64,000 nucleotides of DNA from assembly GCA_000092065.1 (NCBI GenBank), contig CP000596.1. One strand, given 5' to 3'. Positions within the stretch are counted from its first letter, which is position 1; each line of letters starts with the position of its first letter. This DNA is from Ostreococcus lucimarinus. Lineage: Eukaryota. Below the pieces are notes generated by a model, which worked only from the letters and a program-made list of their open reading frames with translations, was not told the DNA's origin and made no database searches. Positions 5,198-32,177 of this stretch are shown here, in pieces. The translations under genes and the position numbers were made by a program.

Positions 5198-5354
5198 GCT
5201 CGGTTAGCTCAGTTGGTTAGAGCGTGGTGCTAATACATTATACGTAGCATTCGATTCGAGCGCGATTCAGTTCGCGCTTCAGACACGTGGACGTTTGTAT
5301 TCAGTCTGATGAAGAGAAACGCCAAGGTCATCGGTTCGACCCCGGTACTGAGCA
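5198..5354 (+). tRNA. tRNA-Ile (anticodon AAU) with an intron of about 83 nt between positions 37 and 38 (about 5236..5318).
   Basis: 5' half GCTCGGTTAGCTCAGTTGGTTAGAGCGTGGTGCTAATA and 3' half ACGCCAAGGTCATCGGTTCGACCCCGGTACTGAGCA are nearly identical to eukaryotic cytosolic tRNA-Ile-AAT. The acceptor stem pairs (GCTCGGT / ACTGAGC, one G-U). The T-loop is TTCGACC. A TTTTTT run lies about 30 nt downstream. Confidence 0.85.
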
Positions 5355-28565: not shown

Positions 28566-29819
28566 CTAATCGAACAAGCCTTCGCGCGGAGGCGCCTTCT
28601 TCACTTCCTTCGGCTTCGTGGAGAAGAGCCCTCCGTCGTCGGAGTCTGAATCTGAATCAAACAATGCCGTTGGTGACTTTTTCGGCTCCGGTACCGCGAT
28701 CGACATGGACGCCACGGCGGACGACGGCGGCACAAGCGTTTTTGCGTCTGTTTTCTTAGATTCCACCGATTTCAACGCGTCGAGGGGATCGGTGATCGGC
28801 TCCGAAAACAAGTCGCCTCCCGACGGACGTCTGGTAATTCCGAACAAATCGCCGTCGTCGTCATCGGAATCGGAATCGAACAATCCTTTCGGCTTTTTCG
28901 GCGCCGCCGCGGGCGGTTTCGCAGGCGCAGACGCCAAAGGCGCGGGCGCGGACGCCAAAGGCGCTTTCCCGCTCGCGCCTCCGAAGAGACCACCGTCGTC
29001 ACCTTCGACGTCATCAAATAATCCGCCTTTTGATTTGCGAACGTCGTCTCCGAACACATCGTCGAAAGATAACGCGTAGGACGGCGCCGCCTTCTTCGCG
29101 GCTGTCGTCGCCGACGACAAACCGACGCTCGAAAACAAGCCATCGCCGCCGGCGCCAGCCAACGCATACGACCCATCGACGTCACCAAAGTTATTTTCAA
29201 CGTCCGCTAAGTTATCCTCCATGTCCGAATACTCCCCCTCGCTCGACGTCGAGCTCACGAATTCGCTCGAGATATCGCTCTCGAACTCGTCGCTCGAATC
29301 TTCGCTCACCTCGCTCGAGTCCTCGTCATCGCTCGATATGTACGTCCCCCACCGCGCCGGATTCGGATTTTTCGCCACCTTTGGATCCAACCCACAGCTT
29401 TCGTCGTGATAGTACGCCGTCGTGCCGATCACCGCCGGCAACGGTCGCCAATGCTCGTTCCCCGTGAGCGCCAACCCGCCGTCGCGCGTCTCCGCCCACC
29501 GTCCACGTATCGCCTCCATCGCCCGCCGCGCCGCCTCCGCGTACGCCTCCGGCGTTTCTCCATCCTCGTTTTCTTTCGTTTCGCTCGCCGAGCGCGCGCT
29601 TTCTTTTCCAACGCCGTCGACCTCGTCGTCGTCGTCGTCTCGTTCGTCGACGCGCTTTTCCAAAAACTGCGAATTGCTCAAGATTCTGAATCCACAGCTC
29701 ACGCTCGCGATCTCGCACGTCGCGTACGACGTCTCCAGCGCGTTTCCATCGACCGCGGTCGCCGTTCGCGCGCACCGCTCCAGCGCTCGCGCGTCGCTCG
29801 CGCGCGCGCGTTCGATCAA
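28566..29819 (-). CDS. Acidic Ser/Asp-rich protein with repeated LF-acidic motifs (GLFDD..GGLFG; KGLFDSDSDDDDGDLFGI; ALFDSDSDSDDGGLFS; EGLFD).
   Basis: Long ORF with strongly non-random composition and four repeats of a basic-G-LFD-acidic-G-LF unit that resemble LFa motifs of FAM21-type tails. No globular domain recognised. Confidence 0.5.
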   Translation of the reverse strand: MIERARASDARALERCARTATAVDGNALETSYATCEIASVSCGFRILSNSQFLEKRVDERDDDDDEVDGVGKESARSASETKENEDGETPEAYAEAARRAMEAIRGRWAETRDGGLALTGNEHWRPLPAVIGTTAYYHDESCGLDPKVAKNPNPARWGTYISSDDEDSSEVSEDSSDEFESDISSEFVSSTSSEGEYSDMEDNLADVENNFGDVDGSYALAGAGGDGLFSSVGLSSATTAAKKAAPSYALSFDDVFGDDVRKSKGGLFDDVEGDDGGLFGGASGKAPLASAPAPLASAPAKPPAAAPKKPKGLFDSDSDDDDGDLFGITRRPSGGDLFSEPITDPLDALKSVESKKTDAKTLVPPSSAVASMSIAVPEPKKSPTALFDSDSDSDDGGLFSTKPKEVKKAPPREGLFD

Positions 29820-29987
29820 CTGTCGTCAACGTCGTCATCGCCCTTCGTCAGTCCTCGCGCGCGATTCCGCGCGCGACGCGCGCGTCGACGCACCGCTCGA
29901 TCGTGTCCGAGTCGCCACGGCTCGCGCGTCGCGTCGAGCGCGTCGAGCGCGTCGAGCGCGTCGAGCGCGTCGTCGTCGCCTCGGGAC

Positions 29988-30962
29988 ATGGCGCGATGCG
30001 CCACACGGCGACGAATGGCGTCGCACCGAGACGTCGTGCGCGACGCGTACGCGCGCACCGCCCTGAGCGCGGGGCGCGAGGGATGCTGCGTCACCCCGCT
30101 CGACGCGCGCGTGAAGATCGGGTACACGCGCGACGAGCTGGCGCTCGCGGGAGGCGCGAATCTGGGCGTCGGATGCGGCGCGCCGCATCAGTTCGCCGAG
30201 CTGCAGGCGGGCGAGGCCGTGTGCGATCTGGGGTGCGGTGCGGGCGTGGACGTCGTGCTCGCGGCGCTGAGCGTCGGCGAGCGCGGCGTCGTCGTCGGGG
30301 TGGACATGACGCCGGAGATGTTGCGCGAGGCGCGAGCGCGCGCGGCGGAGGCGAGCGAACGCGCGAACGCCGACGGCCGCGAATGCGCGCGCGCGGAGTT
30401 TCGGTTGGGGGAGCTGGAGCGTTTGCCGTGTCGAGACGGCGAGTTCGACGTCGTGATGTCGAACTGCGTGATTAATTTGTGCGAGGATAAGCGCGCGGCG
30501 CTCGCGGAGGCGTTTCGAGCGTTGAAGCCGGGAGGACGGTTGTGCGTGGCGGACGTGGTGAGTCGAGGAAACGCGCTGCCAGAGGCGCTGAAGACGAACG
30601 AGGCGCTGGCGTGCTGAGTGTCGGGCGCGCACGAGCAGGACATTTTGCGGGATATGCTGCGAGACGTCGGTTTCGTGCGGGCCGAGATTCGCGTGAAGGA
30701 AGAGTCGCGCGAATACATCAAGCACTGGATGCCGGGTTCGGGGGCGGAAGATTACGTCGTCGCGGCGGAGGTGGTGGCGCATAAGCCAGGGACGCTGACG
30801 AGCGTCGTCCAGGGCGCGTGCAAGCGCGTGGGTGAATTGCTGTACGCCGCGTGGTTGGCGCAAGCGCGTCATCACGCCGCGCACACCGACCACTCCCAGG
30901 ACGACGACGAGCCCGAATGCTGCGCGCCGGGTCCGGCGAAAAAGCCGCTTCCCAAGTGCTGA
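29988..30962 (+). CDS. Arsenite S-adenosylmethionine methyltransferase (ArsM / AS3MT-like) with an in-frame TGA at 30615..30617; candidate selenoprotein.
   Basis: DVVRDAYARTALSAGREGCCV, GVGCGAP, VLDLGCGAGVDV, MSNCVINLCEDKRAALAEAFRALKPGGRLCVADVVSRG..PEAL align to bacterial ArsM ([78 protein letters not shown]). The ORF track splits the gene at a TGA (ORFs 29406..30617 and 30618..30962), but both pieces are in the same frame and the downstream piece (VSGAHEQDILRDMLRDVGF...) continues the ArsM alignment (LAGALDEADYVAKLAAAGF). The TGA sits beside or at the conserved catalytic Cys (..ALAC-TGA-VSGA vs ..WVGCLAGA). Confidence 0.7.
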
Positions 30963-31041
30963 CGATAATGCACCCCTTCGCGCGCGTCGCGAAGGGGTGA
31001 AACGGCTTCTGAAGGCCCTCTCGGACGATTTGGAGATTTTC

Positions 31042-31091
31042 GTGACGAAGCGACGGGTGAAACGGTTTCGCGCCGGCCGTCGCTTCCGACT
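31042..31091 (+). promoter_or_regulatory. Candidate SECIS element (form-2-like) in the 3' UTR of the ArsM-like gene.
   Basis: cgUGAc GAAGCGACGG gugAAAcgguuucgcgccgg CCGUCGCUUC cGAc. UGA on the 5' side and GA on the 3' side flank a perfect 10-bp helix. An unpaired AAA lies in the internal loop, followed by a 3-bp mini-stem (cgg/ccg). The element lies about 80 nt downstream of the stop codon at 30960..30962. Confidence 0.5.
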
Positions 31092-31187
31092 TTTTTCCAT
31101 CGCGAGAACGGTCGCTCAAAGGCTATGCCATCGTTCTAAATGGTGTTACAACATTGTAAGAATGTCTCAGAATTTTTTCAGATTTTT

Positions 31188-32177
31188 TCACGCGGGCGAG
31201 ATCACGTTAATCGGCTCACCTCTGAGAAACGCCTCCACGTTCGCCGCCACCATGTCCACGAGGCGTTGTCTCGTCTCCACGCGCTTCCACCCTATGTGTG
31301 GGGTCAAGTACACGTTCTCCAGCGTGTACAACGGCGAATCGTCGGACGGGGGCTCGTTTTCTTGCACGTCGAGCATCGCGCCGGCGATTCGCTTCTCTCT
31401 CAGCGCGACTATTAAATCTCTCTCGTTGACTACGGCGCCTCGCGCCGTGTTGATCAACCGCGCCGTCGGCTTCATCATCGCGAGCGCGTCCGCATCTATC
31501 ATCCCGCGCGTTTCCTCCGTCAGCGGACAGTGCACGCTCACAAAATCCGACGTCCTGAGCAGCGTCTCCAGGCTCACCGCCTCCCACAACCCCTCCTCGT
31601 CGCGCGCGCTCCTCGAGTGACACGTCGCCCGCATCCCGAGCGCTCGACACGCCCTCGCCACCGCCCTCCCGATCGATCCCGTCCCGCCGATCAGCCCGAT
31701 CGTCTTCCCTCGCAGCTCGAACATCGTCGGAAACGTCGTCAACCCACTGAAATCGCGGTTAAAATCTCGCCGATCCCCCTTCCGCAGCGCCGCGTGTCGT
31801 TCGCACAGCCCCACCGCGGCCGCGCTCGCGTACGCGACGACCAACGCCGCCACGCCGTCGGTCGAGTACTCCGGCGCGTTGCACACCGCGATCCCGCGCC
31901 TCGCCGCGGCGGTCGCGTCGATGTTATCCGTCCCCGTGCCCGCCTCCGCGATCAATCGCACGCTCTTCGGCAAGCGCTCGACGTCCACTTTAATCTCCTT
32001 CGTCACCAGCACCACCGCGCCGTGCTCTTCGCATCGCGTCGCGATCGTCGCGGCGTCGCAGTCGCAGTCGTCGTATCGACGCGCGTCGCCCACGCGCTCG
32101 AGCGAAGTCCAGTCGAGCGCGTCGTCGAAGTCCACGCGCGAAGCGTTGACGACGACGATCGTCGCGCGCGAATCCAT
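31188..32177 (-). CDS. D-isomer-specific 2-hydroxyacid dehydrogenase (glyoxylate/hydroxypyruvate reductase or phosphoglycerate dehydrogenase family).
   Basis: NAD-binding GLIGGTGSIGRAVA and catalytic-region INTARGAVVNERDLIVAL...TPHIG are characteristic of the 2-Hacid_dh family. Confidence 0.85.
   Translation of the reverse strand: MDSRATIVVVNASRVDFDDALDWTSLERVGDARRYDDCDCDAATIATRCEEHGAVVLVTKEIKVDVERLPKSVRLIAEAGTGTDNIDATAAARRGIAVCNAPEYSTDGVAALVVAYASAAAVGLCERHAALRKGDRRDFNRDFSGLTTFPTMFELRGKTIGLIGGTGSIGRAVARACRALGMRATCHSRSARDEEGLWEAVSLETLLRTSDFVSVHCPLTEETRGMIDADALAMMKPTARLINTARGAVVNERDLIVALREKRIAGAMLDVQENEPPSDDSPLYTLENVYLTPHIGWKRVETRQRLVDMVAANVEAFLRGEPINVISPA

What the first reader, a model, noticed from the sequence alone, without database searches (positions are those of the whole stretch)
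29988..31091. Candidate selenoprotein: ArsM/AS3MT-like arsenite methyltransferase with in-frame UGA plus downstream SECIS-like hairpin
The methyltransferase aligns to ArsM across its whole length. It is interrupted by a single TGA (30615..30617) that is in frame on both sides, and conserved ArsM sequence resumes right after it (..EALAC-U-VSGAHEQDILRDMLRDVGF vs bacterial ..LLWVGC-LAGALDEADYVAKLAAAGF). The TGA sits at or next to the position of the conserved C-terminal catalytic cysteine (the one corresponding to human AS3MT Cys206). About 80 nt past the real stop codon there is a hairpin with UGA/GA flanking a perfect 10-bp helix, unpaired AAA and a mini-stem, which is the architecture of a eukaryotic form-2 SECIS. 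The picoalgae this genome resembles are known to have large selenoproteomes, so UGA-to-Sec recoding is plausible. I cannot say from memory whether a Sec-containing arsenite methyltransferase is already catalogued in those selenoproteomes. If it is not, this would be a new selenoenzyme class with a Cys-Sec dyad at the As(III)-binding site.
Basis: partly seen in the sequence, partly recalled or inferred. Interest (0 to 1): 0.8.

Follow-up and report, generated by a model that had tools for sequence, protein, structure and literature searches.

The report
Known algal selenoprotein arsenite methyltransferase
This is a real selenocysteine-containing arsenite-methyltransferase-like gene of the picoalga Ostreococcus lucimarinus, but this exact gene and its selenocysteine were already published in 2007; the only fresh lead is that its apparent stop codon may encode a second selenocysteine.

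Summary
An ArsM-like ORF (ATG 29988, or more likely 30015) carries an in-frame TGA at 30615-30617. Coding sequence continues in frame after it, and a GUGA-type form-2 SECIS lies at about 31026-31102.

The window is O. lucimarinus CCE9901 Chr_16. The UGA aligns exactly with the As(III)-binding Cys224 of CmArsM (by established numbering, human AS3MT Cys206), not merely next to it. It is TGA in all 31 orthologous loci examined. The SECIS shows clear covariation: 9 of 15 pairs carry changes on both sides.

This is not new. Lobanov et al. 2007 list this locus (Chr_16 125451-126959) with the sequence "...NEALACUVSGAHEQD". Zhang & Gladyshev 2008 name the family arsM (PRK11873) in prokaryotes and eukaryotes. 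NCBIfam holds bacterial Sec-ArsM models.

One further point is unproven. The annotated stop, TGA 30960-30962, always follows a conserved Cys. It is always followed in frame by zero or one variable codon and then TAA/TAG, and a covarying hairpin starts 5-9 nt downstream of it. This suggests a second, C-terminal Cys-Sec. The 2007 supplement writes "KCUQ" for O. tauri only.

The parts
29988..30968 (+). Coding sequence of the ArsM-like SAM-dependent methyltransferase selenoprotein. The first ATG is at 29988. The conserved and more likely start is ATG 30015 (M10). The frame reads through UGA 30615 and, if the second-Sec reading is right, through UGA 30960 to TAA 30966-30968.
   Evidence: Searches show the ORF. 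Pfam Methyltransf_31 matches at 7.7e-29 and NCBIfam NF008823 arsenite methyltransferase at 240.3 bits. P0001 is 100% identical: the NCBI O. lucimarinus protein, starting at M10 and truncated at the UGA. The M10 start is conserved in P0003 and L010, whereas the upstream ATG is not.
30615..30617 (+). In-frame UGA decoded as selenocysteine (U210 counted from ATG 29988, U201 from ATG 30015). It follows Cys codon 30612-30614 and forms the motif C-U-V-S-G (UxxG).
   Evidence: It aligns with Cys224 of CmArsM and Cys202 of bacterial P0006. It is TGA in all 31 orthologous loci. It is published as U in Lobanov 2007 Additional file 2.
30960..30962 (+). The annotated stop codon UGA. It is a candidate second selenocysteine, giving a C-terminus ...PKC-U-R followed by stop.
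   Evidence: It is always TGA and always preceded by Cys. It is followed by CGA, CAA, AAC or GAT and then TAA/TAG, or directly by TAA in the GC-rich L028/L029/L031 group. Lobanov's alignment writes the O. tauri C-terminus as KCUQ.
30966..30968 (+). TAA. This is the true stop codon under the two-Sec reading, or a tandem back-up stop otherwise.
   Evidence: An in-frame TAA/TAG at this spot is conserved in all Mamiellales-type loci, while the codon in between varies at all three positions.
30971..30999 (+). Conserved 12-bp hairpin (CACCCCUUCGCG / CGCGAAGGGGUG, 5-nt loop). It starts 8 nt after UGA 30960-30962 and 2 nt after the TAA. It sits where a Sec-redefinition-element-like (SRE-like) structure would.
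   Evidence: RNAfold predicts it in every orthologue, starting 5-8 nt after the UGA where it folds alone. Stacked positions are paired in nearly all sequences, with changes on both sides at 4 positions. A hairpin is also predicted in L028 and L031.
31026..31102 (+). SECIS element, form 2, GUGA type. Helix I is 31031-31036/31094-99, with a possible extension at 31026-28/31100-02. The core is G31042-UGA31043-45 opposite GA 31088-89. Helix II is 31047-56/31077-86. The unpaired AAA is 31060-62. The mini-stem is 31063-65/31073-75.
   Evidence: Searches give the fold and one search shows the same architecture in 13 orthologues. Covariation: 89.9% of cells are paired against 31-45% for slid controls, and 9 of 15 pairs carry changes on both sides. 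It is the only SECIS-architecture hit in the window. A G before the core and type II structure are the published Ostreococcus norm. Rfam gives no SECIS hit.
31146..31159 (.). Palindromic TTACAACATTGTAA, which gives UGUAA on both strands. It is a putative shared poly(A) signal of the two convergent genes (this gene on +, the 2-hydroxyacid dehydrogenase gene 31188-32177 on -). This is an inference.
   Evidence: The sequence is. A TACAAC..TTGTAAGAAT-like motif recurs in the orthologous 3' regions. Its role as a green-algal poly(A) signal rests on my own knowledge and was not tested.

Best explanation
The locus is the Ostreococcus lucimarinus CCE9901 (Chr_16) gene for the known 'SAM-dependent methyltransferase' selenoprotein, a bacterial-type ArsM (PRK11873-like) enzyme. 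UGA 30615-30617 is recoded to selenocysteine, directed by a GUGA-type form-2 SECIS in the 3' UTR (about 31026-31102). By inference this uses the standard eukaryotic machinery: SBP2 binding the kink-turn core and eEFSec delivering Sec-tRNA. The Sec replaces one of the two As(III)-binding cysteines of ArsM/AS3MT (CmArsM Cys224; the other, Cys174, corresponds to C160 in SNCVINL). The metalloid would therefore be held by a thiolate/selenolate site, next to a conserved neighbouring Cys209. Shown here: the homology, the exact Cys/Sec correspondence, conservation of the UGA, purifying selection downstream of it, and SECIS covariation. Inferred: actual Sec insertion in this species, arsenite as the substrate, and the catalytic advantage of Sec.
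For:: P0001 is 100% identical and named O. lucimarinus CCE9901. Lobanov 2007 Additional file 2 gives Chr_16 [125451,126959] (window position = chromosome position - 96000) with ...NEAL-ACUVSGAHEQD.... [quoted passage not shown]: a 2026 review lists arsenite methyltransferase NF008823 with motif UxxG, citing Fomenko et al. 2007 as its reference 87. MTase domain, NF008823 at 240 bits, and an alignment putting U210 on CmArsM Cys224, C160 on Cys174 and C63 on Cys72. TGA at this codon in 31 loci spanning several Ostreococcus-like lineages, a GC-rich Micromonas-like group and Pycnococcus; third-position excess after the UGA. SECIS architecture and covariation; the O. tauri orthologue ostta17g00710 was detected at protein level; papers citing the report that O. 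tauri methylates and volatilises arsenic.
Against: Rfam's SECIS models give no hit, even at E<=10 on the 351-nt 3' region. I attribute this to the GUGA core and algal divergence, but no dedicated SECIS caller was available here. NF008823 scores 240.3 bits, below its curated cut-off of 263 (with U replaced by C), so assignment to arsenite methyltransferase proper is close but not formally met. There is no direct evidence here of Sec insertion in O. lucimarinus or of the enzyme's substrate. The O. tauri proteomic detection does not show which peptides were seen.
Confidence: 0.95

Rival explanations
1. The protein has two selenocysteines. UGA 30960-30962 is also decoded as Sec, giving a C-terminal Cys-Sec-Arg tail that ends at TAA 30966-30968. 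The conserved hairpin 30971-30999 acts like a Sec redefinition element and favours recoding over termination at this UGA, which lies close to the SECIS. The flexible C-terminal Cys-Sec pair would serve as a redox or metalloid-shuttling arm, by analogy with the GCUG tail of thioredoxin reductase. This extends the best explanation rather than excluding it.
For: Searches cover about 13 distinct sequences from at least 7 lineages. In all of them the first stop is TGA, never TAA or TAG, and is always preceded by Cys, although the tail is otherwise highly variable (..PKC..SQC..KSC..AGC..ESC; 113-150 aa). The next codon varies at all three positions (CGA, CAA, AAC, GAT, or absent). An in-frame TAA/TAG is always kept, and it toggles between TAA and TAG; a hairpin 5-8 nt after the UGA with four compensatory positions. 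Lobanov's alignment prints KCUQ for O. tauri; bacterial ArsM-like double selenoproteins with a near-C-terminal Sec exist (NF047649, UXPK-star).
Against: There is no direct evidence. The lineages are related, so part of the conservation is inherited. The Pycnococcus locus L030 lacks the Cys-TGA-TAR pattern. The published O. lucimarinus model and all database models end at the Cys. The UGA lies only 82 nt upstream of the SECIS core.
Confidence: 0.65
2. UGA 30960 is an ordinary stop. The nearby in-frame TAA/TAG is a fail-safe tandem stop, selected because a SECIS-bearing mRNA makes UGA stops leaky. The hairpin has another 3'-UTR role, such as stability or spacing of the SECIS.
For: Tandem stops are a known fail-safe (my own knowledge). 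All database models end at Cys. Lobanov's O. lucimarinus entry ends at PKC.
Against: This does not explain why the first stop never switched to TAA/TAG, which would remove the leak, while the second stop did toggle. It does not explain the invariant Cys immediately before the stop in an otherwise fast-evolving tail.
Confidence: 0.3
3. The internal TGA is a sequencing error or a pseudogene lesion, or it is removed by splicing as in the O. tauri gene model P0004, so no Sec is inserted.
For: The NCBI O. tauri model (P0004, 278 aa) skips 31 codons around the UGA.
Against: TGA is present in 31 independent assemblies. The stretch skipped by the O. tauri model is in frame, conserved, and contains the catalytic-Cys-equivalent motif. 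There is purifying selection on both sides. A covarying SECIS lies downstream.
Confidence: 0.02
4. The enzyme is a Sec-dependent methyltransferase of the ArsM fold, but its physiological substrate is not arsenite. It could be another soft metalloid or a chalcogen species.
For: NF008823 scores below its cut-off (240 against 263 bits). The closest solved ArsM structures are only moderately similar (E=1.5e-25 to 1e-18). There is a lineage-specific His/Cys-rich C-terminal tail (HHAxHTD...CCxPGP...C).
Against: All four ArsM cysteine positions are kept. NF008823 is by far the best family hit. O. tauri is reported to methylate arsenic (cited).
Confidence: 0.2

Closest known systems
Ostreococcus 'SAM-dependent methyltransferase' selenoprotein (Lobanov et al. 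2007, Genome Biol 8:R198; O. tauri ostta17g00710)
   Same: It is the same gene. The published coordinates Chr_16 125451-126959 map onto window 29451-30959, and the published sequence ...ACUVSGAHEQD... is identical.
   Different: The published model starts further upstream (window 29451), at a start that is probably not used. It ends at ...PKC, whereas the same paper's O. tauri sequence is written ...KCUQ.
Prokaryotic Sec-containing arsenite methyltransferase (PRK11873 / NF008823, motif UxxG; Fomenko et al. 2007; Zhang & Gladyshev 2008)
   Same: Same fold and the same Sec position (U-x-x-G). It is the best-scoring family, at 240 bits.
   Different: In bacteria the SECIS lies inside the coding region just after the UGA (established knowledge). 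Here it is a 3'-UTR kink-turn SECIS. The algal protein also has a lineage-specific C-terminal tail and a Cys directly before the Sec.
Cys-type ArsM/AS3MT (CmArsM PDB 4FR0/4FS8; Chlamydomonas ArsM 5EVJ; human AS3MT)
   Same: The SAM-binding Rossmann domain and the conserved cysteines Cys72, Cys174 and Cys224 (CmArsM numbering) align with C63, C160 and U210.
   Different: Sec replaces the Cys224/Cys206 position. The protein is shorter and lacks the large C-terminal domain of the 380-aa eukaryotic enzymes.
NCBIfam bacterial double/triple selenoproteins built on ArsM (NF047649 MTase/UXPK-star; NF041537 ArsM/AhpD; NF041536 ArsM/DUF2284)
   Same: An ArsM-like domain with UxxG plus at least one further Sec, near the C-terminus in NF047649. 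This parallels the proposed C-terminal Cys-Sec here.
   Different: Scores of 130-137 bits are far below the cut-offs of 460-575. There is no AhpD or DUF2284 domain and a different tail, so this is not a member.
Thioredoxin reductase C-terminal GCUG and the SEPN1-type Sec redefinition element (SRE)
   Same: A penultimate Cys-Sec pair at the C-terminus, and a stem-loop a few nucleotides 3' of the UGA. Both comparisons rest on my own knowledge of those systems.
   Different: The protein family is unrelated. Function here is untested, and the hairpin lies in what is currently annotated as 3' UTR.

Membership tests
Eukaryotic selenoprotein gene | In-frame UGA at a position occupied by Cys in homologues | tested here: met
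   U210 aligns with CmArsM Cys224 and with P0006 Cys202.
Eukaryotic selenoprotein gene | UGA and downstream coding sequence conserved in orthologues | tested here: met
   TGA in 31 of 31 loci. Third-position excess downstream of the UGA. Mean column identity of 79% in the C-terminal alignment.
Eukaryotic selenoprotein gene | SECIS in the 3' UTR: (A/G)UGA...GA quartet, helix II, unpaired AAR, and (form 2) a mini-stem | tested here: met
   Architecture. Covariation (9 of 15 pairs with double changes; 89.9% paired against at most 45% for slid controls). The GUGA type matches the published Ostreococcus consensus.
Eukaryotic selenoprotein gene | Recognition by a curated SECIS model (Rfam SECIS families) | tested here: not met
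   No SECIS hit at gathering threshold over the window, nor at E<=10 over 30900-31250. SECISearch3/Seblastian were not available. Lobanov 2007 identified its selenoprotein genes with SECISearch.
Eukaryotic selenoprotein gene | Direct demonstration of selenium incorporation | not testable with these tools
   The only indirect evidence is a 75Se labelling pattern in O. tauri and proteomic detection of ostta17g00710.
ArsM / AS3MT arsenite methyltransferase | Class I SAM-dependent methyltransferase domain | tested here: met
   Methyltransf_31 at 7.7e-29, Methyltransf_11 at 4e-20.
ArsM / AS3MT arsenite methyltransferase | Score at or above the curated family cut-off (NCBIfam NF008823, 263 bits) | tested here: not met
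   240.3 bits with U replaced by C. It covers profile positions 4-269 of 272 and is the best hit by 100 bits. This is a near miss.
ArsM / AS3MT arsenite methyltransferase | Four conserved cysteines (CmArsM Cys44, Cys72, Cys174, Cys224) | tested here: met
   C63 aligns with Cys72, C160 with Cys174 and U210 with Cys224. The C33-C34 pair lies 2-3 residues from Cys44 in an ungapped HMMER alignment, so that position is approximate.
ArsM / AS3MT arsenite methyltransferase | As(III) methylation activity | not testable with these tools
   There is only a literature report that O. tauri methylates arsenic (Zhang et al. 2013, cited).
NF047649 / NF041537 / NF041536 bacterial multi-Sec ArsM fusions | Score at or above the curated cut-off, and the second domain or motif | tested here: not met
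   137.2 against 460, 136.5 against 510 and 129.5 against 575 bits. The matches cover the MTase domain only.
Sec redefinition element (SRE)-type recoding stimulator | Phylogenetically conserved stem-loop a few nt 3' of a Sec UGA | tested here: inconclusive
   After UGA 30960 a conserved, covarying hairpin starts 5-8 nt downstream, but it is not proven that this UGA encodes Sec. After UGA 30615 only a weak structure is predicted, with an unfavourable covariation term of +0.88.

The most novel reading that the evidence does not exclude
The Mamiellales ArsM-like selenoprotein carries two selenocysteines. The UGA annotated as its stop codon (30960-30962) would be a second Sec in a C-terminal Cys-Sec-(X) tail, and its decoding would be helped by a conserved hairpin immediately downstream that acts like a Sec redefinition element. 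The enzyme would then have two Cys-Sec dyads, one at the As(III) site and one on a mobile tail, resembling the redox relay of thioredoxin reductase. Only an unremarked 'KCUQ' in a 2007 supplementary alignment for O. tauri hints at this in the literature I could read.
Probability: 0.6. Interest if true: 0.45.

Novelty: already known. Interest (0 to 1): 0.2.

Why it matters
The main finding adds nothing new. It independently reproduces a catalogued selenoprotein. It also shows that current public gene models mishandle it: the NCBI O. lucimarinus protein is truncated at the UGA, and the O. tauri model splices out the catalytic Sec region. If the second, C-terminal Sec is real, the protein would be a small example of a metalloid-handling enzyme with two Cys-Sec dyads, together with a conserved recoding hairpin in a green alga. 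That would bear on how UGA-Sec is told apart from UGA-stop near a SECIS, and on why Sec is used in arsenic biochemistry.

Tried and rejected
Rfam scans found no SECIS family, either at gathering threshold over the whole window or at E<=10 over the 3' region. They returned only a tRNA and two chance sRNA hits.

A covariance model built from the 12 orthologous SECIS sequences (R1) found only its own site in the window (63.5 bits). It missed the divergent SECIS candidates in L028 and L031, so it could not reveal other selenoprotein genes.

A generic architecture scan found only the one SECIS. Because shuffles give 0.68 per window, the scan has little power on its own.

I looked for an SRE-like structure after the first UGA. 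RNAalifold gives a weak G.U-rich helix with an unfavourable covariation term, which I treat as inconclusive.

A second protein search aimed at naming the taxon of the divergent loci L019-L025 returned no named source for them. Their identity as a separate Mamiellales lineage, and the 'Micromonas-like' label for L028-L031 (GC 0.67, conserved synteny with the 2-hydroxyacid dehydrogenase gene), are therefore inferences.

Pseudogene, sequencing-error and intron explanations for the internal TGA were considered and rejected, because of conservation in 31 independent assemblies.

No structure prediction was run. It would not discriminate between any of the hypotheses.
Full report
**Observation.** Reading the window confirms an ORF from ATG 29988 with an in-frame TGA at 30615-30617 (codon 210). 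The same frame stays open for a further 114 codons up to TGA 30960-30962. Long open frames are common in this GC-rich DNA, and one search lists many overlapping spurious ORFs, so openness alone is weak evidence. Three results show the downstream part is coding. Its first 58 residues align at 50% identity (E=5e-18) to a Cys-type bacterial ArsM, beginning directly after that protein's Cys202. Nucleotide differences from three orthologues concentrate at third codon positions: [28,13,45], [26,18,41] and [20,12,50]. An alignment of five orthologous C-terminal parts has 79% mean column identity.

**Identity of the locus.** The best database match, P0001, is 100% identical and is the NCBI 'predicted protein [Ostreococcus lucimarinus CCE9901]'. 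It is a 200-aa model that starts at the second Met (ATG 30015) and stops at the UGA.
- Pfam finds a class I SAM methyltransferase domain (Methyltransf_31, 7.7e-29).
- The best NCBIfam family is NF008823/PRK11873 arsenite methyltransferase, at 240.3 bits. This covers the whole profile and is about 100 bits above the next family, but lies just below the curated cut-off of 263.
- Against solved structures, the best hits are Chlamydomonas and Cyanidioschyzon ArsM. The HMMER alignment puts query C63 on Cys72, C160 (SNCVINL) on Cys174, and position 210 on Cys224 (query CC[U]VSGA against ECLGGA).

The UGA therefore replaces the conserved As(III)-binding cysteine exactly. By the established AS3MT numbering this is human Cys206. 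A Cys directly precedes it (C209), and this Cys-Sec dyad is present in every algal Sec form I saw.

**Conservation of the UGA.** I fetched the O. tauri locus and several metagenomic and genomic orthologues by exact-protein look-up, plus 21 further loci from a metagenome scan. All 31 loci have TGA at the homologous codon, in the context ...EAL(A/S/V)C-TGA-V(S/T/A)GA.... They include several Ostreococcus-like lineages, two more divergent lineages (L019-L024, L025), a GC-rich group I call Micromonas-like (L028, L029, L031) and Pycnococcus provasolii (L030). Gene callers truncate the protein at this codon again and again: P0001-3, P0005, P0007, P0089, P0123, P0130, P0168 and P0179 all end in ...AL(A/S/V)C. 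The O. tauri model P0004 avoids the UGA by 'splicing out' 31 conserved in-frame codons, which I regard as an annotation artefact. Sequencing error, pseudogene and intron explanations can be dismissed.

**SECIS.**
- G31042-UGA-C at the 5' core;
- a perfect 10-bp helix II (31047-56/31077-86);
- unpaired AAA (31060-62);
- a 3-bp mini-stem (31063-65/31073-75);
- C-GA-C (31087-90);
- a helix I (31031-36/31094-99) in the minimum-free-energy fold.

The same architecture sits at the same place in all orthologues. On a 12-sequence alignment (A2), the structure pairs 89.9% of cells, against 31-45% when the 3' partners are slid by 1-3 columns. Nine of 15 pairs carry changes on both sides, and no shuffle out of 500 reaches the observed covariation score.

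A generic SECIS-architecture scan of both strands of the window returns only this site. Shuffles give 0.68 sites per window, so its location within about 220 nt of the 3' UTR of a UGA-containing gene, together with the covariation, carries the weight.

Rfam's SECIS models do not detect it, even at E<=10. This is a formal negative. However, Lobanov et al. report that all but one of the O. lucimarinus SECIS elements have a G rather than an A before the core and that none is type I. This element fits that description, and it probably lies outside the animal-dominated Rfam seed.

**Comparison with what is known.** The finding is already published.
- Lobanov et al. 2007 (PMC2375036) list a 'Methyltransferase' selenoprotein in O. 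tauri, O. lucimarinus and T. pseudonana as a homologue of bacterial selenoproteins.
- Their Additional file 2 gives 'O. lucimarinus (Chr_16 [125451, 126959])' with the aligned sequence '...ALKTNEAL-ACUVSGAHEQDILRDMLRDVGF...'. Their model starts at the MLVPRERQ Met, which lies at window 29451 in the upstream ORF. This fixes the offset: window position = chromosome position - 96000.
- Zhang & Gladyshev 2008 (PMC2398784) name the family arsenite S-adenosylmethyltransferase (PRK11873, arsM). They state that it occurs as a selenoprotein in both prokaryotes and aquatic eukaryotes.
- A 2026 review lists arsenite methyltransferase NF008823 with motif UxxG and cites Fomenko et al. 2007 (Science 315:387) as its reference 87. 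From memory, that paper used exactly this kind of Sec/Cys pair to pinpoint catalytic cysteines, with AS3MT as the verified case.
- NCBIfam also holds three bacterial multi-Sec ArsM families. This protein scores far below their cut-offs, so it is not a member.
- The O. tauri orthologue ostta17g00710 is detected in proteomics, and O. tauri is reported to methylate and volatilise arsenic (cited).

**Mechanism.** The best-supported account is standard eukaryotic Sec recoding of UGA 30615 by the 3'-UTR SECIS. This would give an ArsM whose As(III) site is formed by Cys160 and Sec210, with Cys209 adjacent and the N-terminal cysteines (C33/C34, C63) playing the usual redox role. The recoding signals are shown here. 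Sec insertion in this species, arsenite as the substrate, and any catalytic benefit of Sec are inferred.

**A further lead: the stop codon.** The annotated stop, TGA 30960-30962, shows a consistent pattern across the Mamiellales-type loci.
- The tail ends in a Cys codon followed by TGA, although the tail itself evolves fast (..PKC, ..SQC, ..KSC, ..AGC, ..ESC; lengths 113-150 aa).
- One codon follows that varies at all three positions (CGA, CAA, AAC, GAT), or none in the GC-rich group.
- An in-frame TAA or TAG then follows.
- The first stop is never TAA or TAG, whereas the second toggles between the two.
- Pycnococcus does not show the pattern.

Directly after it comes a hairpin, at 30971-30999 in the window (12 bp). 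In the Ostreococcus-like sequences it begins 5-8 nt after the UGA where it folds alone. Stacked positions are paired in nearly all of them, with compensatory changes at four positions. A hairpin is also predicted after the UGA in L028 and L031.

The simplest reading is a second Sec in a C-terminal Cys-Sec-(X) tail, with an SRE-like stimulator. Lobanov's alignment prints the O. tauri C-terminus as '...KCUQ' but ends the O. lucimarinus sequence at '...PKC'. I found no mention of two Sec residues for this family in the text of that paper or in the 2020 algal selenoproteome paper.

The rival reading is an ordinary UGA stop with a fail-safe tandem stop. It does not explain why TGA persists or why the preceding Cys is invariant. 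I put the two-Sec reading at about 0.6-0.65. It is untested.

A search for a comparable structure after the first UGA was inconclusive.

**Verdict.** Novelty is nil for the main claim: this is an already known gene, published with this Sec. Interest is low, apart from the modest C-terminal Sec and hairpin lead and the fact that public gene models for this protein remain wrong.

Noticed in passing
window 30960-30999: The annotated stop TGA is always preceded by Cys and followed in frame by 0-1 variable codon plus TAA/TAG in all Mamiellales-type orthologues. A covarying hairpin begins 5-8 nt downstream. This may be a second selenocysteine (C-terminal Cys-Sec) with an SRE-like element.
   Followed up: partly
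window 30995-31009 and 31055-31069: Direct repeat GGGTGAAACGG(C/T)TTC. One copy flanks the post-stop hairpin and the other forms the AAA loop and mini-stem of the SECIS. It is seen in the window and in its close relatives L007-L010, but not in O. tauri or the more distant orthologues.
   Followed up: no
window 31146-31159 (and the T-rich 31172-31186): Palindromic TTACAACATTGTAA gives UGUAA on both strands between two convergent genes. Together with the motif TTTTTTCAGATTTTTT, it recurs in the orthologous intergenic regions. It may be a shared bidirectional poly(A)/termination signal.
   Followed up: no
window 29932-29969: Four tandem copies of the 9-nt unit GCGTCGAGC lie immediately upstream of the first ATG of the methyltransferase gene, in the 5' UTR or promoter region.
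   Followed up: no
window 5198-5354 (+): A tRNA gene (Rfam tRNA, 42.9 bits) is interrupted by an 86-nt insertion at the anticodon-loop position. This is presumably an intron.
   Followed up: no
window 28566-29819 (-): The upstream neighbour is a 417-aa acidic, Ser/Asp-rich ORF with repeated GGLF/GDLF/GLFD motifs and no Pfam family recorded in orthologous loci. Its position next to the selenoprotein gene is conserved in O. tauri and the metagenomic orthologues.
   Followed up: no
L001 3001-3930 (O. tauri) and P0001 (O. lucimarinus): Public gene models mishandle the Sec codon. The O. lucimarinus protein is truncated at the UGA. The O. tauri model removes 31 conserved in-frame codons, including the catalytic Sec, as a false intron.
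   Followed up: yes
L030 about 2173-2240 (Pycnococcus provasolii): After the apparent stop TGA of the tail, the frame reads GPPPPPKPEPVSACGPGG-TGA-GAT-TAG. That is another TGA-NNN-TAG ending 19 codons further on. It could be coincidence, an intron effect or further recoding.
   Followed up: no
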